Source: Blastopirellula sp. (GTDB lineage: Bacteria; Planctomycetota; Planctomycetia; Pirellulales; Pirellulaceae). Taken from it: DNA of 12,345 nt. Below the pieces are notes generated by a model, which had not been told where the DNA came from, made no database searches, and saw only the letters and a list, made by a program, of their open reading frames with translations. A program made the position numbers and the translations under genes. The stretch spans positions 1 through 12,345 of the forward strand of contig NVWB01000116.1 of assembly GCA_002733575.1 (NCBI GenBank), in the 5' to 3' direction. Below, piece by piece: positions 81 through 12,037 of the stretch; the first letter of the stretch is position 1; every line of letters starts with the position of its first letter.

Positions 81-100
81 GGCACAGCCTGACCTACAAA
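81..100. repeat. Solo copy of the short intergenic repeat GGCACAGCCTGACCTACAAA; the same 17-mer core forms an inverted pair at 11935-12037
   Basis: Direct string match of ggcacagcctgacctac to 12021-12037 and, as its reverse complement, to 11935-11956. It lies in the intergenic leader upstream of the nfeD-like gene. Confidence 0.5.
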
Positions 101-2852: not shown

Positions 2853-2945
2853 GTTGTCCCGGAGGGACAATAGCATGTAGCCAGGGGATTCATCCCCTGG
2901 AATCAAATTACTCAAAGTTCCAAAAGCCCCAGCGGGGCGATATCG
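2853..2945. repeat. Left arm of a ~95-bp imperfect terminal inverted repeat containing three hairpins (GTCCCggaGGGAC, CCAGGGGAttcaTCCCCTGG, GCCCCagcGGGGC)
   Basis: Reverse-complementing 3488-3582 and aligning it to 2853-2945 gives the same three hairpins in the same order with about 70% identity. An example is gtcccggagggacaatagcatgtagccaggggattcatcccctggaa against gtcccgatagggacgacatcgtgtagctaggggatttatcccctggaag. Confidence 0.6.
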
Positions 2946-3487: not shown

Positions 3488-3582
3488 ATGTCGCCCCTGG
3501 CCGGGGCTTAGACGATTTAGGGCATTCACTTCCAGGGGATAAATCCCCTAGCTACACGATGTCGTCCCTATCGGGACTGAAA
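3488..3582. repeat. Right arm of the ~95-bp imperfect terminal inverted repeat (GCCCCtggccGGGGC, CCAGGGGAtaaaTCCCCTAG, GTCCCtatcGGGAC), mirrored relative to 2853-2945
   Basis: See the left arm. The hairpins appear in reversed order and orientation, so the two arms are inverted copies about 540 bp apart. Together they bound a noncoding element of about 730 bp. Confidence 0.6.
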
Positions 3583-3719: not shown

Positions 3720-4355
3720 GTGCCAACATTGCCACGTGCAACCCTACAATTACCTAATAGAGATCAGTCTGTGCTGGAAATCATCCACTATCCGCATCCT
3801 ACACTGCGATATAAATCAAAACCGATCAAACGGGTCGACGCCAACTTGCGCCAGATGGTCGAAGAAATGTTTGACCTGATGTATGAGCACAAAGGCGTAG
3901 GGCTGGCCGCCAATCAAGTTGATTTGCCGCTTCGACTGTTCGTGGTCAACGAAACGGCCGATCCGGATCAAAGAGACCAAGAGCACGTCTTTATTAATCC
4001 GATCATTAGTCGGCCCAAAGGGAACGAAGAGGCCCAAGAGGGCTGTCTGAGTTTGCCAGAAGTGTATGCCGATGTAAAACGGCCTGCCGAGTTCCATTTC
4101 TCTGCTTACAATCTCAAAGGCGAGAAAATCGAAGGACAATTCGATGGGTTCTTTGGCCGTATCTTACAACACGAAACCGACCACTTAGATGGCATCATGT
4201 TTATCGATAAAGTGATGCCCAATGACTTGGTGGAAATCGAGCATGAGATCGAAGAATTTGAAGTCGATTTCAAAAGCAAGCGAGATGTCAACGCAATTCC
4301 ATCCGATGAAGAAATCGCCCAACGATTGTCCGAAATTGAAGCAACGTATTGTTAG
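3720..4355 (+). CDS. def: Peptide deformylase
   Basis: All three PDF motifs are present: GVGLAANQV (motif 1), EGCLS (motif 2) and QHETDHLDG (HExxH, motif 3). The start is ambiguous among GTG 3720, TTG 3729 and GTG 3771. The last gives an N-terminus MLEIIHYPHPTLR that is typical of PDF, so the true start is probably 3771. There is a C-terminal acidic extension of about 35 aa. Confidence 0.9.
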   Translation: MPTLPRATLQLPNRDQSVLEIIHYPHPTLRYKSKPIKRVDANLRQMVEEMFDLMYEHKGVGLAANQVDLPLRLFVVNETADPDQRDQEHVFINPIISRPKGNEEAQEGCLSLPEVYADVKRPAEFHFSAYNLKGEKIEGQFDGFFGRILQHETDHLDGIMFIDKVMPNDLVEIEHEIEEFEVDFKSKRDVNAIPSDEEIAQRLSEIEATYC

Positions 4356-4418: not shown

Positions 4419-5396
4419 ATGCGAATCGTCATGATGGGGACCGGGCCATTTGCGGTTCCTACGTTTGAAAAATTGATTGCCAGTCAGCATGAAGTGTTGT
4501 GTTTGATCACACAACCAGATCGTCCTACGCGCGGCAAGCGGAAGCCGCCAGTGAATCCGATGCGACAAGCGGCAGAGAAAAACGGCATCACGGTTCACTC
4601 TCCGCAAAGCATCAACAACGAAGAAGCATCTCAGTTGTTGACCGCCTGCGAAGCTGACTTATATGTGGTCTGCGATTACGGACAGATTCTATCCAATGAC
4701 ATCTTGGCGTTGGCGAAGTACGGCGGTATCAACCTGCATGGGTCTCTGCTGCCCAAGTATCGCGGTTCGGCCCCAGTACAGTGGGCCATCTACAACGGCG
4801 ACGCCACCACCGGCGTGTCTGTGATTCACATGACACCCAAGCTCGATGCTGGCCCTTGCTTGAAAGTGGTTGAGACACCGATTGATGCAAATGAAAATCA
4901 ACTAGAACTCGAACATCGATTGTCCACACTCGGTGTCGCTGCCGTGTTCGATGCGATTGATCAGCTAGAACAATCCAACGCAGGTGAAGCACTTGGCGAA
5001 GTGCAAGATAAAGCATTGGCCACCAGGGCTCCTCGATTAAAAAAATCAGATGGCGAGATCGATTGGTCCAAATCAGCCAAACAAATCTACGATCAATTTC
5101 GGGCCTTTCAACCATGGCCAGGCTGCTTCACCCACTGGCTGCGTGAAGGCGAAGAACCGCTGCGACTGATCGTCAAACAGGTTCGATATGAGCAAATTGA
5201 GACCGAATTCCCAGACTCTGAGGTCGGTAAAACCGTGGCGGCAGATGATCAAGGAATTCAGATTACTTGCAAAACGGGGGTCATAATCCTCGAAGAAGTA
5301 CAGCCTGCCGGAAAACGGGCCATGAAAGTTGAAGAACTTCTGCGGGGCTATTCGATCTTGCCAGGCATGCCATTTGGACCGCAACCTGTTTCATAA
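4419..5396 (+). CDS. fmt: Methionyl-tRNA formyltransferase
   Basis: The N-terminus MRIVMMGTGPFAVPTFEKL is Fmt-like. The formyltransferase core HGSLLPKYRGSAPVQWAIYNGDATTGVSV is present. The gene lies immediately downstream of def, the classic def-fmt arrangement. Confidence 0.9.
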   Translation: MRIVMMGTGPFAVPTFEKLIASQHEVLCLITQPDRPTRGKRKPPVNPMRQAAEKNGITVHSPQSINNEEASQLLTACEADLYVVCDYGQILSNDILALAKYGGINLHGSLLPKYRGSAPVQWAIYNGDATTGVSVIHMTPKLDAGPCLKVVETPIDANENQLELEHRLSTLGVAAVFDAIDQLEQSNAGEALGEVQDKALATRAPRLKKSDGEIDWSKSAKQIYDQFRAFQPWPGCFTHWLREGEEPLRLIVKQVRYEQIETEFPDSEVGKTVAADDQGIQITCKTGVIILEEVQPAGKRAMKVEELLRGYSILPGMPFGPQPVS

Positions 5397-5891: not shown

Positions 5892-7316
5892 ATGCCGAAA
5901 CAATTGTATATCGAAACGGTTGGATGCCAAATGAACATGCTCGATAGCGAACTTGTCGTCGCAAGTTTGCGAAAGCAGGGCTATCAACTGACCGACTCTA
6001 TTGAAGAAGCCGACGCGTTACTCTTCAATACGTGCAGCGTGCGTGAGCAAGCCGAAAACAAAACCTACAGCCACCTGGGTAAATTACGTCAATTCAAAAT
6101 TGATAACCCCGAAAAAGTCATCGGCGTGATGGGCTGCATGGCCCAAAACCATCAAAAGAAAATCTTTCAGCGTGCCCCGTATGTTGACCTGATTGTTGGC
6201 CCTGGCCAGTTGCATCAGATCCCTGAATTGATCAAAAAAATTGAACAGGGTGAAGGGCGACAGATTGAAGTCTCGCTCGGTCGCCGCGATGGTGGTCGCG
6301 AAGAAATTATTCGCAGCCACGAAAGTTTTGATCCACTACGCGACCCTGAAATGCGACCGACCCCGTTCCAAGCTTTTATTCGCATTCAAATTGGTTGCGA
6401 CAAATTTTGCACCTATTGCATTGTCCCAAGTGTTCGCGGACCAGAACAAGGCCGCAACCCGCACGACATCATTGCCGAAGCCAAACATCTGGCATTGCAC
6501 GACACGGTCGAAATCACACTGATTGGTCAAACCGTCAACAGCTACAAAGCGGTTGATCAAGATGGCAAGCTGTGGAGAATGTCGGACCTGCTAGGCGAGC
6601 TGCAAGAGATCGATGGCATTCAACGTATCAAGTTTGTGACCAACTATCCGAACGACATGACCGATGACTTGCTGTGTGCCGTGCGCGATCTCAGCAAGGT
6701 TTCGCCCTATTTGCATGTGCCGGCCCAAAGTGGATCGGAGCGTATTCTCAAGCGGATGAAACGTGGCTACACAGTGGCCCAATATCGAGACATGATGCAC
6801 CGCATTCGAGAAACGGTTCCCGGTGCCGCAGTCAGCAGTGACTTTATCGTCGGCTTCTGTGGCGAGACCGACGAAGAGTTTCAAATGACTGTCGACTTGG
6901 TGGAAGAATGTCGCTTCAAAAACAGCTTCATCTTTAAGTACAGCGAACGCGAAGGAACCAAAGGGGCCGAGATGTACGATGATGACATCCCCCATCATGT
7001 TAAAAAGGAAAGAAACAATCGGCTGCTGGAAATTCAAAATCAAATTAGCCTCGAAGACAATCAGGACATGATAGGGCACACCGTTGATGTGTTGATTGAG
7101 GGCATCAGCAAAACGGCCATCAGAAAAGGGGAAGACACCGGCCCCAGCGTCCAATTAACTGGAAGAACCCATTGCGACCGCATCGTGGTTTGCGAAGGAA
7201 ACCCCCGCCAAATTGGGCATATTCTACCGATGACCATCTACGAAACATCGCCCCATACGCTGTTTGGTGAAGTGGTGACCGAAGCCTGTGGACCGGAGCT
7301 ATTTGGCTTGGGTTAA
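5892..7316 (+). CDS. miaB: tRNA (i6A37) methylthiotransferase, MiaB-type radical SAM MTTase
   Basis: The N-terminal MTTase cysteine triad is present (TVGCQMN, NTCSVREQAE, VMGCMAQ). The radical-SAM motif is GCDKFCTYC. A C-terminal TRAM-like region follows. The GCQMN and NTCxVRE signature fits MiaB better than RimO or MtaB. Confidence 0.8.
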   Translation: MPKQLYIETVGCQMNMLDSELVVASLRKQGYQLTDSIEEADALLFNTCSVREQAENKTYSHLGKLRQFKIDNPEKVIGVMGCMAQNHQKKIFQRAPYVDLIVGPGQLHQIPELIKKIEQGEGRQIEVSLGRRDGGREEIIRSHESFDPLRDPEMRPTPFQAFIRIQIGCDKFCTYCIVPSVRGPEQGRNPHDIIAEAKHLALHDTVEITLIGQTVNSYKAVDQDGKLWRMSDLLGELQEIDGIQRIKFVTNYPNDMTDDLLCAVRDLSKVSPYLHVPAQSGSERILKRMKRGYTVAQYRDMMHRIRETVPGAAVSSDFIVGFCGETDEEFQMTVDLVEECRFKNSFIFKYSEREGTKGAEMYDDDIPHHVKKERNNRLLEIQNQISLEDNQDMIGHTVDVLIEGISKTAIRKGEDTGPSVQLTGRTHCDRIVVCEGNPRQIGHILPMTIYETSPHTLFGEVVTEACGPELFGLG

Positions 7317-7452: not shown

Positions 7453-8079
7453 ATGCGAACTGTAATTAGCAGTTGCCTGTTGCTCTTGGTTTTGATTTCT
7501 TCCAACGCACTGGCTGCCGAAAAAGGTTGGAAAAAACTGACCGATGGTAAAACCTATGACGGTTGGAAAATCAACGAGAACAAAGAAACTTGGTCGATCC
7601 AAGATGGTGCGTTTGTTGCCAAAGGCGACCGCAGCCACTTGTTCTATGTCGGCGATGATAGACCGTTTGTGAACTTTGAGTTCAAAGCCCAAGTCATGAC
7701 CCGCAAAAACAGCAACGGCGGAATTTACTTCCACACCAAATATCAAGACGCCGGCTGGCCCAAACACGGTTTTGAAGCCCAAGTCAACAACACCCACCAT
7801 GACCGTAAAAAAACGGCCAGTGTTTATGCCGTCAAAGACGTAATGGATGATGCACCTGCCAAAGATGACGTTTGGTTTGAGTACTACATCAAAGTGGTTG
7901 GCAAAACCGTAGTGATCAAAATCGACGGCAAAGTGGCCAACAAATACACCGAACCCGAAGGCACCAAAGCCGGCAAAGATTTCACCCGAGTCTTCAACAA
8001 AGGCACCTTCGCCCTCCAAGGCCACGATCCTGGAAGTGTTGTGTACTTCAAAGACATCGAAGTCAAACGCTTGCCGTAA
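7453..8079 (+). CDS. Secreted DUF1080 (3-keto-disaccharide hydrolase-like, LamG-type beta-sandwich) domain protein
   Basis: AGGAGA RBS. The signal peptide is MRTVISSCLLLLVLISSNALAA. The sequence then reads GWKKLTDGKTYDGWK...WSIQDGAF...GGIYFH...EAQV...ALQGHDPGSVVYFKDIEVK, a typical DUF1080 pattern. A terminator hairpin follows 28 nt after the stop. Confidence 0.85.
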   Translation: MRTVISSCLLLLVLISSNALAAEKGWKKLTDGKTYDGWKINENKETWSIQDGAFVAKGDRSHLFYVGDDRPFVNFEFKAQVMTRKNSNGGIYFHTKYQDAGWPKHGFEAQVNNTHHDRKKTASVYAVKDVMDDAPAKDDVWFEYYIKVVGKTVVIKIDGKVANKYTEPEGTKAGKDFTRVFNKGTFALQGHDPGSVVYFKDIEVKRLP

Positions 8080-8106
8080 GCAAATAGCCAATGGCAACCA
8101 ATTAAT

Positions 8107-8147
8107 ATAAAAGAGCCCGCTCTGAATCAGAGCGGGCTCTTTTTTTG
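8107..8147. terminator. Bidirectional rho-independent terminator, copy 1 of 3
   Basis: ATAAAAGAGCCCGCTCTGA/atc/AGAGCGGGCTCTTTTTTT. A perfect GC-rich stem of about 13 bp is flanked by an A-tract upstream and a T-tract downstream. Confidence 0.85.
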
Positions 8148-8193
8148 TTATCTTGTTTTTAGTAAAGGTCGCTTTATATTTCGTCAGTGTCAC
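8107..8193. repeat. Direct-repeat block 1: the terminator plus about 45 bp ending in GTCAGTGTCAC. Block 2 at 8783-8869 is in register exactly 676 bp away. A shorter copy (terminator plus TATC...GGTCGCTT) sits at 10691-10758.
   Basis: Ungapped alignment of 8107-8193 to 8783-8869 gives about 95% identity over the hairpin and about 74% over the 53 bp that follow. The shared ends are ttttgtcagtgtcac and tttcgtcagtgtcac. The block-1 segment tatcttg...ggtcgcttt resembles tatcatc...ggtcgctta after the third terminator. Confidence 0.7.
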
Positions 8194-8283
8194 TCATCGC
8201 GTGTGGTCAAAATACTCATCTGGAAGCCACGTAGGGTAGATAAATCCATATTCATCCACCTTGGAATCACGATTCAACCAAAA

Positions 8284-8298
8284 TTAACCATTGGTTAA
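8284..8298. promoter_or_regulatory. Perfect 15-bp palindrome TTAACCATTGGTTAA (copy 1), candidate dimeric-protein binding site
   Basis: The sequence is exactly its own reverse complement. It recurs identically at 8331-8345 and in degenerate form at 8470-8482. Confidence 0.5.
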
Positions 8299-8330
8299 AT
8301 TTCCCGAAAAACCCCTCTACTGCGGCGGAC

Positions 8331-8345
8331 TTAACCATTGGTTAA
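8331..8345. promoter_or_regulatory. Perfect 15-bp palindrome TTAACCATTGGTTAA (copy 2)
   Basis: Identical to copy 1, centre-to-centre spacing 47 bp. A T-tract follows. Confidence 0.5.
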
Positions 8346-8469
8346 TTTTTGATGACCGTTTTTATCGGTTACCCCGTTGTTGGTCGAATTTTTGTGTTGT
8401 TGTAACTCCCCGTCTCAAACGACTTATGGCAAGTGAAAATCCTTGCTTTCTTGGATTCAACCAAAACAT

Positions 8470-8482
8470 AACCTTTGGTTAA
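8470..8482. promoter_or_regulatory. Degenerate third copy (AACCTTTGGTTAA) of the TTAACCATTGGTTAA palindrome
   Basis: Matches the palindrome with one central substitution. A GGTTAA half-site repeats 14 nt downstream. Confidence 0.35.
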
Positions 8483-8782
8483 ATATATGACCGCGGTTAA
8501 ATCGCATCTTCACACATTTCAAACCGGTCAAAACACTCAGCTTTCCCCCCGTTGGAAATCAAATCTCGGGTAGCCCAAGTTGCAAGCAACTGGCGGCATG
8601 ATTTGTCATAAATCGGTTCCATAGCTCTGGTCCAATTTACAAAACATCTGTAAGGCACGCCGGATATTCTGTAGGGTACGCTATTGCGTACCAGCCATTA
8701 TAAAACCGCATTATAATCTCACGCCCAGGCCCAATTTCAAACCCCAATTGCACTTCACACTGGCGAAGCCAGTGGCACCCAA

Positions 8783-8822
8783 ATAAAAGAGCCCGCTCTG
8801 ATACAGAGCGGGCTCTTTTTTT
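8783..8822. terminator. Bidirectional rho-independent terminator, copy 2 of 3
   Basis: ATAAAAGAGCCCGCTCTG/ata/CAGAGCGGGCTCTTTTTTT. The stem is the same as copy 1 and only the loop differs. Confidence 0.8.
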
Positions 8823-8869
8823 GTAATCTGATTTGAAGTATCGATTGTGTTAAATTTTGTCAGTGTCAC
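8783..8869. repeat. Direct-repeat block 2 (terminator plus ~45 bp ending GTCAGTGTCAC). The motif recurs inverted at 8929-8942 (GTGAACACTGACAA).
   Basis: See block 1. The inverted third copy of TGTCAGTGT(C/T)CAC, together with 8859-8870, flanks a roughly 58-bp AT-rich stretch immediately upstream of the DUF262 gene. Confidence 0.65.
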
Positions 8870-9024
8870 CAGTCAACTTAAATAATTTGCTATTATTCTA
8901 TCTACACCTCTGTTATTATTCTTGCTCCGTGAACACTGACAAGGTAGTATTCAATATCCCCTCCTAGACTTAATGGAATTGCTAGATAGATATTTCATAA
9001 ATAATCCATAACATAAAGAATCAC

Positions 9025-10113
9025 ATGGCAACTAGTTTAAAATCAATCCGTGACGACGAAGAAGAATTACTGTACGAGGCAGATGAGTCGGAACTGCCTC
9101 CTTCCGATATCGTTGCTTTTAATGAGCAGAGGTCATGTGCTGATTTATTGCGAATGTACCAGTCAGAACAACTCATCATTCAGCCCGATTTTCAACGTGA
9201 TATTGTTTGGCCTAATCCTGCACAAACGCGGTTTATAGATTCGTTAGTGAAGGAATTGCCGATCCCAAGTATGTGCATCAGTTTTGATTACAACACAACA
9301 GAAAGACTTGTAATTGATGGGCTACAACGTATGTCAACAATCATCAAATTCCTCTCTGATGACACTTGGAAATTATCTACAGTTTCTGATGTTGACAAAC
9401 GAATATCAGGCAGGACTAATGATTACATCAAGAAGAATCACAGTTCAATTTATGATCGAATTCAAAACCTTACTATTCCTGTAACAGTACTTCGATGTGA
9501 CTATAAAAAGGAATCTCACATGAGGTATTTGTTTACAATATTTCACCGGCTCAATACTGGTGGAAGCAAGTTATCAAATCAGGAGATTCGAAATTGCATC
9601 TACAGTGGAAGTCTAAATGATTTGTTAAAAGAGTGTGTTGAAAATAAAGATTATCGTCACCTACTCAATCTCTCAGCCAAAGGAACATATCGATTTTCTC
9701 ACGAAGAGCTAGTGTTAAGGTTCTTTGCATTTACGGATAAGTTTTCGGATTATGATGGAAAGTTGTCCTCATACTTAAACGACTATATGAATCATCATCG
9801 CCATGCCGATTCGAAATTCCTCAGGAAGAAGAAAAAACAATTTTTAGAGATGATCAAAATATGCTATGAAAAACTGACTGAAGGTGCAGCTCTTCCTAAG
9901 GGAAGTAAAGCAACTACTGAAGCTATCATGGTAGGGATAGGTAGAAATTTAAGTACATTAAGGTCTACTAGGTCGGCTACAGTTCAGAAACGCATGAAAG
10001 AATTGCTTAATACTGATGAGTTTCACCCAGACAACCTAAAAAATGCTTTGACGTCAAAAGATAAAATGATATCTAGGCTGAGGAGTGCTGTAAAGGTTTT
10101 AGGTGGCAAATGA
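9025..10113 (+). CDS. DUF262 domain protein (ParB/Srx-fold, GmrSD N-terminal-like nuclease/NTPase domain), 362 aa
   Basis: DUF262 signature blocks in the expected order: IQPDFQRDIVW (FQRxxVW), QTRFIDSLVKELPIP (LIDSI...PIP), VIDGLQRMSTI (DGQQR box) and IFHRLNTGGSKLSNQEIRN (FxRLN.GG..L). The N-terminus is acidic. The gene is strongly AT-rich, with 30-40% GC in sampled 60-bp stretches against about 52% in a host-gene sample. Its stop overlaps the downstream start as ATGA. Confidence 0.85.
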   Translation: MATSLKSIRDDEEELLYEADESELPPSDIVAFNEQRSCADLLRMYQSEQLIIQPDFQRDIVWPNPAQTRFIDSLVKELPIPSMCISFDYNTTERLVIDGLQRMSTIIKFLSDDTWKLSTVSDVDKRISGRTNDYIKKNHSSIYDRIQNLTIPVTVLRCDYKKESHMRYLFTIFHRLNTGGSKLSNQEIRNCIYSGSLNDLLKECVENKDYRHLLNLSAKGTYRFSHEELVLRFFAFTDKFSDYDGKLSSYLNDYMNHHRHADSKFLRKKKKQFLEMIKICYEKLTEGAALPKGSKATTEAIMVGIGRNLSTLRSTRSATVQKRMKELLNTDEFHPDNLKNALTSKDKMISRLRSAVKVLGGK

Positions 10114-10607
10114 TAAGCAAACAAGAAATCGAACGCGATCTAATTAAATTAAAAAGGCTATATGAAAAAGCACCAGATACTCATACTAGTGTGTTCTATT
10201 CGAAGCTTGCAATTCTTGAACTGAGTAGTTGGATCGAATTAAGTTTTGATAAAATAGTAAAACGGTCCATTAATAACAAACTGACATTATGTAAGTATCA
10301 AGCCCTAGTTGAATCGAGTATTAAGAGGAACAACAGTTTTTCGTACAAAAACCATTTTATTCCGATGTTACAAAAAATATCAGGGTTGGTGGCTTGTGAA
10401 GACATCGAGACGAAAATCAAATCCAGCGGTAAGTTTGAACAGCTCACAAACGAATTAACGATCTTAGTAGAAGAACGAAATAAAGCCGCACATGTTGGAG
10501 TTCGACATACAACATACGATGCACCATCTGTTACGATACAAAGATTCAAAGATCTGTATCCGACGATCAAGGATATGTATACATGGTCAGTAAGGTACTG
10601 TTCCTAA
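10110..10607 (+). CDS. Small all-alpha protein with an Rx4H motif (EERNKAAH), candidate HEPN-like RNase partner of the DUF262 protein (MAE_28990/MAE_18760-like)
   Basis: The ATG overlaps the upstream stop by 4 bp (ATGA), implying translational coupling. The sequence is rich in helix-forming residues (L/E/K). The only catalytic-looking feature is the HEPN-type R-x4-H at residues ~123-128. AT-rich like its partner. The family assignment rests on the motif plus the known genomic association of DUF262 genes with MAE_28990/MAE_18760 HEPN genes and was not verified by search. Confidence 0.5.
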   Translation: MISKQEIERDLIKLKRLYEKAPDTHTSVFYSKLAILELSSWIELSFDKIVKRSINNKLTLCKYQALVESSIKRNNSFSYKNHFIPMLQKISGLVACEDIETKIKSSGKFEQLTNELTILVEERNKAAHVGVRHTTYDAPSVTIQRFKDLYPTIKDMYTWSVRYCS

Positions 10608-10690
10608 CTCCAGATTGGAGAGGCAAGATTTTGCAACACGGCTCATATGTCTCTACCGAAAACAATTCAACTATGATTCGTCGATGTGAC

Positions 10691-10733
10691 AAAATAAAAA
10701 GAGCCCACTCTGTAACAGAGCGGGCTCTTTTTT
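10691..10733. terminator. Bidirectional rho-independent terminator, copy 3 of 3, serving the HEPN-like gene (+) and the Gfo/Idh/MocA gene (-)
   Basis: AAAATAAAAAGAGCCCACTCTG/taa/CAGAGCGGGCTCTTTTTT. The stem has one mismatch (A opposite C) relative to copies 1 and 2. It lies 27 nt beyond the stop of the minus-strand oxidoreductase gene. Confidence 0.8.
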
Positions 10734-10759
10734 ATCATCTAATTTTCAACTTCGGTCGC

Positions 10760-11902
10760 TTACGCGATGTCGACCCATTTGCGTTCGGCGGCGCTTTCTA
10801 GTACGGCGTCGCAAACTTTGGCGGTTTCTAGTGCGGTTTTGAAACTTGGTTCGCATACGGTGCCATCTTCTAGACTCTTCAAGAAGTCGGCCACTTGATG
10901 GACGAAGCTGTGTTCATACCCGATGCTTAATCCTGGAACCCACCAGTGATCCATGTACGGCATGTCTCCATCGGAAACATGTACTTTGTGCCAACCACGG
11001 ACGAGCGAGTCGTCGCGGTGATCGAAGTACTCTAAGTGGTTCAAGTCGTGCAAGTCCCAGCGGATCGAACCATGTTCGCCGTTGATTTCTAGCGTGTACA
11101 ACGCCTTGTGTCCACGAGCATAACGCGTCGACTCAAACAAGCCCAACGATCCATTGGCAAAATGGCAATGGAATACACAAGCGTCATCGATGGTGACCTT
11201 CTCCATCTTGCCGGTCAATTGATGCATTCGCTCTTTGATGAAGGTCTCGGTCATGGCTGATACGTCAACGATGCCGCCGTTAAGCCACATGGCCGTGTCG
11301 ATACAATGGGCCAACAGGTCACCTGTTACGCCAGAGCCTGCGGCTTCCGCGTCTAACCGCCAGAGTGCTTCGCCACCTTGAGGCAAGTCAGCGTTGATCG
11401 TCCAGTCTTGCAGGAAGTTCGACCGGTAATGAAAGATGCGACCTAGGCGGCCTTCGTCAATCAATTTTTTGGCCAACGAGACGGCCGGAATTCGGCGGTA
11501 GTTGTACCACACGGTATTCGCAACGCCCGCTTCTTCAACCGCGGTAACCATTTCTGCGCCTTCGGCAGTGGTGCGTGCGATTGGCTTTTCGCACAACACC
11601 ATCTTGCCTGCTTTGGCAGCCGCGATGGCAATTTCGTTATGCGTGTTGTTCGGCGTGCAGATATCAATGGCGTCGATATCGTCGCGTGCGACCAGTGCTT
11701 TCCAATCGGTCTCGTAAGACTCGTAGCCCCACTTGGCAGCAAAGTCTTTCGTCTTCTCTTCGTTACGACCACAAACGGCCTTCAGCACTGGGGTGTATTC
11801 CAGTTCTGGAAAGAAGTCAGGGGCTCGCTTGTAACCGTTGGAATGCGTACGGCCCATGAAGCCGTAGCCAACCAGTCCAATGTTCAGCGGTTTTTTTGCC
11901 AT
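10760..11902 (-). CDS. Gfo/Idh/MocA family NAD(P)-dependent oxidoreductase
   Basis: The N-terminal Rossmann fold is [19 protein letters not shown], and the EKP motif appears in MVLCEKPIA. At 380 aa the length is typical. GGAG lies 11-14 nt upstream of the ATG on the minus strand. Confidence 0.9.
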
Positions 11903-11934
11903 GGTAATCTATCTCCAATGTTGAGTTTTTATTT

Positions 11935-12037
11935 GTAGGTCAGGCTGTGCCTGACGATGTGTAAATGACTGATGGTGTTCGATGCTAAAACTAATTCGAC
12001 GTGAATTAAGTTCGACGTCAGGCACAGCCTGACCTAC
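11935..12037. repeat. Perfect 22-bp inverted repeat (GTAGGTCAGGCTGTGCCTGACG at 11935-11956 and CGTCAGGCACAGCCTGACCTAC at 12016-12037) enclosing a 59-bp AT-rich loop; REP-like element or terminator between two minus-strand genes
   Basis: Exact reverse-complement match. The loop contains the internal direct repeat TTCGACGT twice. The same 17-mer also occurs at 81-97. The element starts 5 nt beyond the stop of the upstream minus-strand ORF (12043). Confidence 0.6.

What the first reader, a model, noticed from the sequence alone, without database searches (positions are those of the whole stretch)
8197..8782. Gene-free 585-bp module carrying three copies of the perfect palindrome TTAACCATTGGTTAA, located between duplicated terminators upstream of a ParB-fold gene
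Two exact 15-bp self-complementary sites 47 bp apart (8284-8298, 8331-8345) and a degenerate third (8470-8482) look like an operator array for a dimeric DNA-binding protein, yet no regulator gene is encoded in the module. The only ORF (8291-8482, TTG start) runs through the palindromes and is probably spurious. The module lies immediately upstream of a ParB/Srx-fold (DUF262) gene. It might therefore be a parS-like loading or recognition site for that protein, a regulatory region for the cassette, the remnant of a mobile-element control region, or the template of a small RNA. A TATAAT hexamer at 8712-8717 and a direct repeat CATTATAA x2 are also present. The whole module sits between direct repeats of about 87 bp, so it could itself be excisable.
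Basis: seen in the sequence. Interest (0 to 1): 0.6.

Follow-up and report, generated by a model that had tools for sequence, protein, structure and literature searches.

The report
Orphan non-coding palindrome spacer, defence locus
A real but probably ordinary stretch of gene-free, repeat-built DNA sits next to a known anti-phage gene pair in a marine Blastopirellula genome. Its three palindromes show no link to that gene pair.

Summary
TTAACCATTGGTTAA occurs exactly at 8284-8298 and 8331-8345, with a 2-mismatch copy at 8468-8482. No coding signal was found in the segment. It lies between two 80-83% identical copies of a terminator-bearing repeat, and the same hairpin occurs a third time at 10697-10733.

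The interpretation as a parS or operator site for the downstream ParB-fold gene is not supported. That gene and its HEPN partner are the known PD-T4-2 anti-phage system. They are low-GC and insulated from the module by a strong bidirectional terminator. The closest homologous cassettes (71, 70 and 59% identity) carry no such palindromes.

The palindromes are cores of a longer asymmetric unit. Two copies form a 25-nt-arm inverted doublet; the third is a decayed singlet. Other Planctomycetota genomes hold dispersed doublets and triplets of palindromes with the same TTAACC/GGTTAA arms at gene ends.

My best reading (confidence about 0.4) is a cluster of REP/REPIN-like repeats in a non-coding islet at an insertion hotspot. 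The main rival is an orphan operator array: the identical 15-mer flanks repressor genes in Proteus and Christensenella.

A 16-nt box, ATTTYGTCAGTGTCAC, ends the terminator repeat and marks the left edge of three inserted segments on this contig. It is unexplained. Interest is low to moderate.

The parts
8086..8193 (+). T1 unit. Contains the bidirectional intrinsic terminator hairpin of the DUF1080 gene (8109-8145), a T-rich spacer, and the 16-nt box ATTTCGTCAGTGTCAC (8178-8193).
8194..8766 (.). Gene-free module core. GC is 41-46% and GC skew reaches -0.25. It has no homologue in any collection searched.
8271..8300 (+). Repeat unit copy 1: GATTCAACCAAAA followed by the exact palindrome TTAACCATTGGTTAA (8284-8298).
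8331..8355 (-). Repeat unit copy 2: the exact palindrome (8331-8345) followed by TTTTTGATGA. By its flank it is inverted relative to copy 1. It forms a 25-nt-arm inverted repeat with 8274-8298, 88% complementary, with a 32-nt spacer.
   Evidence: I7; I2.
8454..8484 (+). Repeat unit copy 3, a singlet. The 13-nt flank GATTCAACCAAAA is exact, but the palindrome ATAACCTTTGGTTAA (8468-8482) is degenerate and is separated from the flank by one extra base.
8671..8692 (+). GTAG followed by a 7-bp hairpin (GTAGGGTACGCTATTGCGTACC). It has the same form as other GTAG-hairpin elements in the window. Weak feature.
8757..8773 (+). Small hairpin CACTGGC-GAA-GCCAGTG, just upstream of the T2 terminator.
8767..8869 (+). 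T2 unit, the second copy of the terminator-bearing repeat. Hairpin at 8785-8821; box ATTTTGTCAGTGTCAC at 8854-8869.
8857..8886 (+). Promoter-like site, TTGTCA-18 nt-AATAAT. Its -35 hexamer lies in the T2 box. It is the candidate promoter of the PD-T4-2 cassette (inferred).
9025..10607 (+). PD-T4-2 anti-phage cassette: DUF262/GmrSD_N (9025-10113) and RiboL-PSP HEPN (10110-10607). GC is 33-40%. It is context for the module, not a functional partner of it.
10686..10733 (-). T3, the third copy of the hairpin (10697-10733). On the cassette side it is directly preceded by GTGACAAAAT, the reverse complement of ATTTTGTCAC, i.e. an inverted and shortened box.

Best explanation
**What the segment is.** 8194-8782 is a non-coding islet in a variable insertion site between a DUF1080 gene and a GFO/IDH/MocA gene of a Blastopirellula MAG. 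It is built from short repeats rather than from a decayed gene.

**What the palindromes are.** They are the cores of one asymmetric repeat unit of at least 25-31 nt: (GAT)TCAnCnAAAA followed by TTAACCAWTGGTTAA. Copies 1 and 2 form an inverted doublet that can fold into an 82-nt hairpin. Copy 3 is a decayed singlet. This is the anatomy of a REP/REPIN-type dispersed intergenic palindrome. Such elements are copied or kept for their own structure, or as a binding site for a trans-acting protein, and not for the neighbouring gene.

**What bounds the islet.** It is bounded by copies of a second repeat of about 108 nt: terminator hairpin, T-rich spacer, then the box ATTTYGTCAGTGTCAC. The same repeat also bounds the adjoining PD-T4-2 defence cassette.

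**Shown.**
- The anatomy of the repeats.
- No coding signal detected in any search run.
- No linkage between the palindromes and PD-T4-2 homologues.
- Palindromes with the same arms exist as dispersed doublets in other Planctomycetota.

**Inferred.**
- That the units here belong to a dispersed family in this particular genome.
- That they have no locus-specific function.
For: 1. **Repeat anatomy.**
- The conserved unit is longer than the dyad and is asymmetric. The 13-nt flank GATTCAACCAAAA is identical before copies 1 and 3, and the unit is 90% identical over 31 nt.
- Copies 1 and 2 form a 25-nt-arm inverted repeat, 88% complementary.
- As single-stranded DNA the doublet folds at -15.8 and -17.8 kcal/mol on the two strands, with z-scores of -3.7 and -4.3.

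2. **Doublet versus singlet.** The doublet is well conserved while the singlet's palindrome is degenerate although its flank is intact. REPINs show the same contrast between doublets and singlets (PMC3337134).

3. **Same arms elsewhere in the phylum.** A scan of 185,579 species genomes for paired TTAACC-N3-GGTTAA gave 22 stretches. Eleven come from three Planctomycetota MAGs, eight of them from one MAG. There the palindromes occur as doublets or triplets placed exactly at ORF ends, mostly between convergent ORFs.

4. **No link to the downstream genes.** None of the closest PD-T4-2 homologues carries the site. A strong terminator separates the module from the cassette.

5. **No coding signal.**

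6. **No promoter overlap.** No promoter-like site overlaps the palindromes.

7. **Repeat-rich setting.** The module also holds a GTAG-hairpin element. The terminator repeat and its box recur on this contig.
Against: - **No second locus seen.** No other locus with this exact unit was found. Only 21.9 kb of the source genome could be read, so copy number is unknown.
- **Collection scans.** The viral scan gave none.
- **Not the same sequence as the MAG elements.** Those have a CGC/GCG centre and TTAATTAA flanks, so homology with the unit here is not shown.
- **No GTAG.** The TTAACC units lack the 5' GT[AG]G usual for RAYT-mobilised REPs.
- **Orientation is ambiguous.** Both exact palindromes have the same central base (T) on the + strand. 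By that criterion copies 1 and 2 are direct, not inverted.
- **The 15-mer can be an operator.** The identical 15-mer flanks repressor genes in unrelated bacteria.
- **Selection is possible.** The two 15-mers are identical while the surrounding terminator repeat has diverged by about 20%. That could reflect selection for protein binding.
Confidence: 0.4

Rival explanations
1. **Orphan operator array.** The 7-1-7 dyads are binding sites for a dimeric helix-turn-helix repressor of the XRE/CI type. The repressor is encoded elsewhere or has been lost. The module would be the surviving control region of a mobile element that once sat at this insertion site.
For: - **Proteus myxofaciens.** The identical 15-mer occurs twice between divergent genes. 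One encodes an unannotated 67-aa ORF; the other encodes a 245-aa protein with a Peptidase_S24 match, as in CI/LexA-type repressors (L005).
- **Christensenella.** The 15-mer, paired with a centre variant (TTAACCAACGGTTAA), lies just upstream of an 81-aa HTH_3 gene (L016).
- **Conservation here.** The two sites are identical over 15 nt although the flanking terminator repeat has diverged to 80%.
- **Position.** The module starts exactly after the box that also marks the edge of two low-GC islets.
Against: - No regulator gene lies in the module or in the 21.9 kb read.
- No promoter-like site overlaps or adjoins the dyads.
- The centre-to-centre spacing of 47 bp is about 4.5 helical turns. That places the two sites on opposite faces, which is unfavourable for cooperative binding.
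- In copy 3 the flank is conserved better than the dyad. Selection on an operator would give the opposite pattern.
- The Proteus and Christensenella cases are in other phyla and show only that such a site can be an operator.
Confidence: 0.25
2. **Non-coding RNA gene.** The module is transcribed and ended by one of the two bidirectional terminators. Transcription could run on the + strand from the T1 box region to T2. Alternatively it could run on the - strand from the promoter-like site at 8740-8713 to T1. The palindromes would then be RNA helices.
For: - The module is bracketed by strong bidirectional terminators.
- A promoter-like site with an extended -10 lies on the - strand at 8740-8713.
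- Both strands fold better than shuffles, z about -5.3.
- The GC skew is strongly strand-asymmetric, down to -0.25.
Against: - The z-scores come mainly from the terminator hairpin and the inverted doublet.
- There is no Rfam match beyond terminator look-alikes.
- No homologue exists, so covariation cannot be tested.
- Promoter-like sites are no more frequent than in shuffles: 6 found against 8.0 expected.
Confidence: 0.1
3. **Recombination accessory sites.** The terminator units are attachment-type sites of a cassette insertion system that acts in trans. The palindromes would be arm-type or accessory binding sites for its recombinase or a directionality factor, left in a cargo-less cassette.
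For: - Three homologous hairpins bracket two adjacent segments.
- The 16-nt box occurs three times in 21.9 kb, always at the left edge of an inserted segment. None of 200 shuffles gave three matches.
- The third box (T4, beside the Imm70 islet) keeps only sequence resembling the 3' arm of the hairpin. A hybrid attachment site with crossover in the hairpin could look like this.
- The PD-T4-2 cassette is flanked by inverted ATTTTGTCA.
Against: - No recombinase gene lies in the 21.9 kb.
- The PD-T4-2 and Imm70 segments carry no TTAACC palindromes next to their boxes.
- T3's flanks are not significantly similar to those of T1 and T2.
- A 1-3-nt centre does not fit the core sites of tyrosine or serine recombinases (general knowledge).
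- No empty site or alternative cargo was found, because relatives are not syntenic here.
Confidence: 0.1
4. **parS-like site.** The palindromes are a loading or recognition site for the downstream ParB-fold DUF262 protein.
For: - The site is close to the gene.
- The site has dyad symmetry.
- Some DUF262 proteins, such as DndB, are reported to bind DNA sequence-specifically. This is from my own knowledge and was not checked here.
Against: - The protein is PD-T4-2_A / GmrSD_N over its full length (E = 2e-159); the scan gave no match to any DNA-binding family.
- The closest homologous cassettes lack the sites.
- A strong terminator lies between the sites and the gene.
Confidence: 0.03

Closest known systems
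REP / REPIN elements (repetitive extragenic palindromes; Bertels & Rainey, PMC3116915, PMC3337134)
   Same: - Each unit has a short imperfect palindrome with a 5' flank.
- Two units in inverted orientation, separated by a non-conserved spacer, can form a hairpin.
- The doublet is better conserved than the singlet.
- The location is intergenic, next to a terminator.
   Different: - Copy number in this genome is unknown; only this locus was seen in 21.9 kb.
- No RAYT gene was seen.
- The 5' GT[AG]G is absent.
- The central bases of the two palindromes are the same on one strand.
TTAATTAACC(CGC/GCG)GGTTAATTAA doublets and triplets in other Planctomycetota MAGs (CAZVVI01, CAZABE01, JACNLR01; found here)
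   Same: - The 6-nt arms TTAACC/GGTTAA with a 3-nt centre are identical.
- The flanks are A/T-rich.
- They occur as doublets or triplets in intergenic DNA.
   Different: - The centre and flanks differ in sequence.
- The period is about 37 nt.
- They abut ORF stops, mostly between convergent ORFs.
- The source genomes are not close relatives.
- Homology with the unit here is unproven.
Operators of XRE/CI-type repressors (for example the Proteus prophage-like locus L005 and the Christensenella locus L016)
   Same: - The same 15-mer, TTAACCAWTGGTTAA, is used.
- The sites are arranged in pairs.
   Different: - There the sites overlap the start region of the regulator gene or lie between divergent genes.
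- Here there is no regulator, no promoter, and a terminator on each side.
Correia/NEMIS-type and other terminator- or promoter-bearing miniature repeats (from my own knowledge)
   Same: The roughly 108-nt terminator unit combines a terminator hairpin with a promoter-like -35 hexamer. It recurs at the borders of accessory genes.
   Different: - No clear terminal inverted repeats or target duplications were seen.
- Only four copies were seen.
- The comparison concerns the flanking repeat, not the palindromes.

Membership tests
REP/REPIN | Two palindrome-containing units in inverted orientation that can form one hairpin | tested here: met
   - Arms 8274-8298 and 8331-8355 are 22/25 complementary, with a 32-nt spacer.
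- The doublet folds at -15.8 and -17.8 kcal/mol, z -3.7 and -4.3.
- Caveat: the central base is T in both copies on the + strand.
REP/REPIN | Many dispersed copies in the same genome | tested here: inconclusive
   No other copy lies in the 21.9 kb of the source contig. The rest of the MAG could not be read. The species is not among the genome contigs representatives.
REP/REPIN | A cognate RAYT (Y1 transposase) gene and a 5' GT[AG]G on the repeat | tested here: not met
   The TTAACC units have no GT[AG]G. No Y1 transposase lies on the contig. The genome-wide presence of a RAYT gene is not testable here.
Repressor operator (XRE/CI type) | Dyad-symmetric site overlapping a promoter, with the regulator or regulated gene adjacent | tested here: not met
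   - The dyad symmetry is present.
- No promoter-like site lies at 8250-8500.
- No regulator gene is present.
- Terminators lie on both sides.
parS / ParB centromere | The site co-occurs with the ParB-fold gene in homologous loci, and the protein has a DNA-binding domain | tested here: not met
   The 71, 70 and 59% homologues have no such site. The protein matches only GmrSD_N / PD-T4-2_A.
Integron cassette / attC | Imperfect inverted repeat with RYYYAAC ... GTTRRRY core sites, and an intI integrase nearby | tested here: not met
   The hairpin is a perfect terminator stem flanked by an A-tract and a T-tract; read by eye, no core-site consensus is present. No integrase lies in the 21.9 kb.
Type III toxin-antitoxin (ToxI-like RNA repeats, terminator, RNase toxin) | Tandem head-to-tail repeats of about 34-40 nt directly upstream of the toxin gene | tested here: not met
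   Tandem Repeats Finder found no array in 8000-9100. The copies are 47 and 137 nt apart, and by their flanks in mixed orientation.
PD-T4-2 defence system (context genes) | Adjacent PD-T4-2_A (DUF262) and PD-T4-2_B (HEPN) genes | tested here: met
   PADLOC models match at E = 2e-159 and 8e-50, both full length. The system is described in PMC9519451.

The most novel reading that the evidence does not exclude
The terminator-plus-box units (hairpin, spacer, ATTTYGTCAGTGTCAC) could be the junction sites of an undescribed cassette-insertion system in Pirellulaceae. Such a system would target terminators and be driven in trans. It would stack small cargo segments: here a non-coding segment, PD-T4-2, and an Imm70 gene 8 kb away. 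On this reading the palindrome module is a cargo-less cassette whose dyads bind the system's own protein.
Probability: 0.1. Interest if true: 0.6.

Novelty: new member of a known kind. Interest (0 to 1): 0.25.

Why it matters
As it stands the finding matters little. It removes a tempting but unsupported link between a palindrome array and a ParB-fold defence gene, and it identifies that gene pair as PD-T4-2 in a planctomycete.

Two side results could be worth a genome-wide look:
- Palindromes with TTAACC/GGTTAA arms behave as dispersed gene-end elements in several Planctomycetota genomes.
- A terminator-plus-box repeat marks the borders of low-GC accessory segments on this contig. If that held genome-wide, it would point to a specific way in which small defence and immunity cassettes are inserted in this phylum.

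Tried and rejected
- **Pseudogene of the DUF1080 gene or any neighbouring gene.** tblastn and blastn found nothing beyond the terminator repeat.
- **Small protein gene.** The 53/41-aa ORF has no homologues and is found only on this contig. Stop-free segments have no Pfam or PHROG hits.
- **Known RNA family.** Only terminator look-alikes were found, for example Thr_leader at 37-39 bits against a gathering score of 55. There are no tRNA or tmRNA genes.
- **Homologues of the module.**
  - None in plasmids or phages.
  - None in the viral contigs scanned for the terminator hairpin and the repeat unit.
  - None in any fetched locus.
- **Metagenome scan for AAWTTAACCAWTGGTTAA.** All hits were unrelated single sites, many inside one conserved marine gene. 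It was uninformative.
- **Orthologous empty site.**
  - The nearest DUF1080 relatives (66-72% identity) lie in a different gene context.
  - MiaB relatives (78% identity) are not syntenic downstream of miaB.
- **Viral scan for the box.** It gave five hits, all inside what appear to be coding regions, and looks like chance.
- **dif/Xer, res/hix and integron attC resemblances.** I considered these by eye and rejected them because the centre length or the core consensus does not fit.
- **Tandem-repeat (ToxI-like) array.** Rejected.
- **Literature search for the 15-mer.** Nothing relevant was found.

Full report
**Source and gene content**

The window is a whole 12,345-nt contig of an NCBI MAG named Blastopirellula sp.. 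An overlapping ENA scaffold from sample TULL18-1 extends the readable sequence to 21.9 kb.

The genes are as follows:

| Coordinates | Strand | Gene or family |
|---|---|---|
| 1044-2732 | + | SPFH protein |
| 3720-4355 | + | def |
| 4419-5396 | + | fmt |
| 5892-7316 | + | miaB |
| 7453-8079 | + | DUF1080 / 3-keto-disaccharide hydrolase |
| 8194-8782 | . | the finding |
| 9025-10113 | + | GmrSD_N / DUF262 |
| 10110-10607 | + | RiboL-PSP HEPN |
| 10760-11902 | - | GFO/IDH/MocA oxidoreductase |

The DUF262/HEPN pair matches the PADLOC models PD-T4-2_A (E = 2e-159) and PD-T4-2_B (E = 8e-50) over their full length. PD-T4-2 is an experimentally found E. coli anti-phage system (PMC9519451). The pair has 33-40% GC against 45-55% in the flanking genes, so it looks horizontally acquired.

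**Checking the observation**

- **Palindromes.** TTAACCATTGGTTAA is exact at 8284-8298 and 8331-8345. ATAACCTTTGGTTAA at 8468-8482 has two mismatches. No shuffle of 200 reached the observed count. The site is a 7-1-7 dyad.
- **Flanking repeat.** The repeat is 87 nt at 83% identity. It extends to about 108 nt at 80% identity, 8086-8193 against 8767-8869. The flanks are similar well beyond shuffled controls: 48 against 19.6 +/- 3.9 on the right, and 28.5 against 14.8 +/- 4.0 on the left.
- **The hairpin.** Each copy contains a 16-20-bp hairpin with an A-tract before it and a T-tract after it, a bidirectional intrinsic terminator. A third copy of the hairpin, 92-95% identical, lies at 10697-10733 after the HEPN gene. 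Its flanks are not significantly similar to the other two.
- **Coding signal.**
  - The 53-aa ORF has no homologue among 1.84 billion representatives apart from itself.
  - The ten longest stop-free segments hit nothing in Pfam or PHROGs.
  - No window protein or fetched homologue aligns to the module.
- **RNA families.** Rfam gives only terminator look-alikes below threshold. There is no tRNA and no tandem array.

**Anatomy of the palindromes**

- The conserved unit is longer than the dyad and is asymmetric. GATTCAACCAAAA is identical before copies 1 and 3, and the 31-nt unit is 90% identical.
- Copy 2 carries the reverse complement of that flank (TTTTTGATGA). As a result 8274-8298 and 8331-8355 form a 25-nt-arm inverted repeat, 22/25 complementary, with a 32-nt spacer.
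- The doublet folds as one hairpin on either strand, at -15.8 and -17.8 kcal/mol as DNA, with z-scores of -3.7 and -4.3.
- In copy 3 the flank is intact but the dyad is degenerate.
- One feature cuts the other way. The central base is T on the + strand in both exact copies. By its centre the pair is direct, and by its flanks it is inverted.

**Link to the downstream defence genes**

- The three closest DUF262 homologues with usable context (71, 70 and 59% identity; L027, L028, L029) have no TTAACC...GGTTAA site even at two mismatches. Nothing in them is similar to the module.
- The family is spread across phyla at 53-60% identity, including Shewanella, Methylotenera, Cyanobacteria and Flavobacteria, as expected of a mobile defence cassette.
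- In this window the palindromes are separated from the cassette by the T2 terminator. The only promoter-like site for the cassette lies after it, at 8857-8886.
- The parS or operator-for-DUF262 reading is therefore not supported.

**Where else the motif occurs**

A scan of one genome per species (185,579 species) for two TTAACC-N3-GGTTAA sites 15-45 nt apart gave 22 stretches.

- **Planctomycetota.**
  - Eleven stretches are from three Planctomycetota MAGs, eight of them from one MAG.
  - There the motif is AATTAATTAACC(CGC/GCG)GGTTAATTAAT, in doublets or triplets with a period of about 37 nt.
  - It is placed exactly at ORF ends, mostly between convergent ORFs, so that the TAA triplets in its flanks coincide with the stop codons.
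  - Palindromes with these arms therefore do behave as dispersed gene-end repeats in the phylum.
- **Other phyla.**
  - In Proteus myxofaciens the identical 15-mer occurs twice between divergent genes. One encodes a 245-aa protein with a Peptidase_S24 match, as in CI/LexA-type repressors. The other is an unannotated 67-aa ORF.
  - In Christensenella it lies, paired with a centre variant, just upstream of an 81-aa HTH_3 gene.
  - The 15-mer can therefore also be a repressor operator.

Neither observation is from a close relative of the source. The source species is not in that collection, and its nearest sequenced relatives are 70-79% identical in protein and not syntenic here. A metagenome scan for a single extended site was truncated at 120 rows and gave only unrelated sites.

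**The flanking repeat and its box**

The right end of the terminator repeat is a 16-nt box.

| Location | Box sequence | What follows it |
|---|---|---|
| 8178-8193 | ATTTCGTCAGTGTCAC | the module |
| 8854-8869 | ATTTTGTCAGTGTCAC | the PD-T4-2 cassette |
| L001:13547-13562 (outside the window) | AATTTGTCAGTGTCAC | the Imm70 islet |

- No shuffle of 200 gave three matches.
- The third copy is 24 nt beyond the stop of an Imm70 gene, at the left edge of a 35-42% GC islet set in 50-55% GC DNA.
- It is preceded by a T-rich spacer and by GAGAGCGGCGCTC, which resembles only the 3' arm of the hairpin.
- All three boxes are on the + strand, and each is followed at once by a segment of lower GC: the module, PD-T4-2 and the Imm70 islet.
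- Read on the other strand, the T3 hairpin is directly followed by ATTTTGTCAC. The PD-T4-2 cassette is therefore flanked by inverted ATTTTGTCA.
- In T2 the box supplies the -35 hexamer of the promoter-like site.
- Two readings are open. The unit may be an attachment-type junction, or a miniature repeat that collects at permissive sites. No recombinase gene is on the 21.9 kb.

**Explanation**

I commit, at about 0.4, to the following reading. The module is a non-coding islet at an insertion-prone site. Its palindromes are copies of a REP/REPIN-like repeat unit: a conserved inverted doublet and a decaying singlet (compare PMC3337134). They have no functional tie to PD-T4-2.

- **Shown:** the repeat anatomy, the lack of any detectable coding signal, the lack of linkage to PD-T4-2 homologues, and the existence of dispersed palindromes with the same arms in the phylum.
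- **Inferred:** that the units here belong to a dispersed family in this genome.
- **Not met or untestable:** multiple copies in this genome, a RAYT gene, and the GT[AG]G hallmark.

Rivals:

| Reading | Confidence | Main point |
|---|---|---|
| Orphan operator array of a trans-encoded HTH repressor | 0.25 | Favoured by the Proteus and Christensenella cases and by the identity of the two 15-mers. Disfavoured by the lack of a promoter or regulator, the 4.5-turn spacing, and copy 3 keeping its flank better than its dyad. |
| Non-coding RNA bracketed by the terminators | 0.1 | No homologues and no Rfam match. Fold z-scores are explained by the hairpins. |
| Accessory sites of a cassette-insertion system | 0.1 | Supported by the box pattern. 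No recombinase, and no palindromes in the other two segments. |
| parS for DUF262 | 0.03 | See the section on linkage above. |

The remainder is left for explanations not considered.

**Verdict**

It is best filed as a new member of the known kind 'intergenic palindromic repeat cluster', with an unresolved alternative as an orphan operator array. The terminator-plus-box repeat at islet borders is the more promising loose end. Testing it needs only the full MAG and its reads.

Noticed in passing
window 8178-8193, 8854-8869; L001:13547-13562 (outside the window): The 16-nt box ATTTYGTCAGTGTCAC occurs three times in 21.9 kb, always on the + strand. Each copy is followed at once by a lower-GC segment: the module, PD-T4-2, and an Imm70 islet. 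None of 200 shuffles gave three matches. Its function is unknown; it could be a junction site, a promoter -35 element, or the end of a miniature repeat.
   Followed up: partly
window 9025-10607: The DUF262 and HEPN genes are a full-length PD-T4-2 anti-phage system (PADLOC E = 2e-159 and 8e-50) in a planctomycete. GC is 33-40% against about 50% in the flanks. Homologues at 53-71% identity are spread across many phyla.
   Followed up: yes
window 2855-2900 (-) and 3532-3578 (+): Two Acido-Lenti-1 RNA motif matches lie in inverted orientation: 37.2 bits, just above the gathering score of 37, and 24.3 bits. They form the outer arms of a set of nested inverted repeats (2863-2902/3530-3569, 3011-3030/3433-3452, 3110-3148/3271-3309). 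Together these make a foldback of about 700 nt in the 1-kb gap between the SPFH gene and def.
   Followed up: partly
window 81-100, 11932-11956, 12016-12037: Copies of GTAGGTCAGGCTGTGCCTGAC (GTAG followed by a hairpin, the classic REP form) lie near both ends of the contig. One pair is inverted, 59 nt apart, with 22/22 complementarity. GTAG-hairpins of other sequence lie at 2877, 3555 and 8671. The count is 8 against 3.2 +/- 1.9 in shuffles.
   Followed up: partly
L003, L004, L010, L013, L014, L017, L021, L022 (MAG CAZVVI01); L018, L019 (CAZABE01); L023 (JACNLR01): In other Planctomycetota MAGs, 27-nt palindromes AATTAATTAACC(CGC/GCG)GGTTAATTAAT occur as doublets or triplets exactly at ORF ends, mostly between convergent ORFs. 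The TAA triplets in their flanks coincide with the stop codons. I know of no description of this dispersed gene-end element family; I did not search the literature for it.
   Followed up: partly
L005:2253-2324; L016:7635-7680: The identical 15-mer TTAACCAWTGGTTAA occurs twice between divergent genes (a 245-aa Peptidase_S24 protein and a 67-aa ORF) in Proteus myxofaciens. Paired with a centre variant, it also lies upstream of an 81-aa HTH_3 gene in Christensenella. These look like operators.
   Followed up: partly
window 10583-10801 (+): A 72-aa ORF called as a gene in the ENA assembly runs through the T3 terminator and overlaps the 3' end of the GFO gene. It is almost certainly spurious.
   Followed up: no
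L002 (Logan contig from run SRR5988114), its end = window about 8312: An independent assembly of the same sample breaks inside the spacer between palindrome copies 1 and 2. The cause could be low coverage or a sequence variant at this point; it was not resolved.
   Followed up: no
window 8835-8856: The right arm of T2 holds a possible fourth, very degenerate palindrome: AAGTATCGATTGTGTTAAATTT against AATTAACCATTGGTTAAATTT. The local alignment score is 12.5 against 8.9 +/- 1.2 in shuffles, with a shuffle maximum of 13, so it is borderline.
   Followed up: partly
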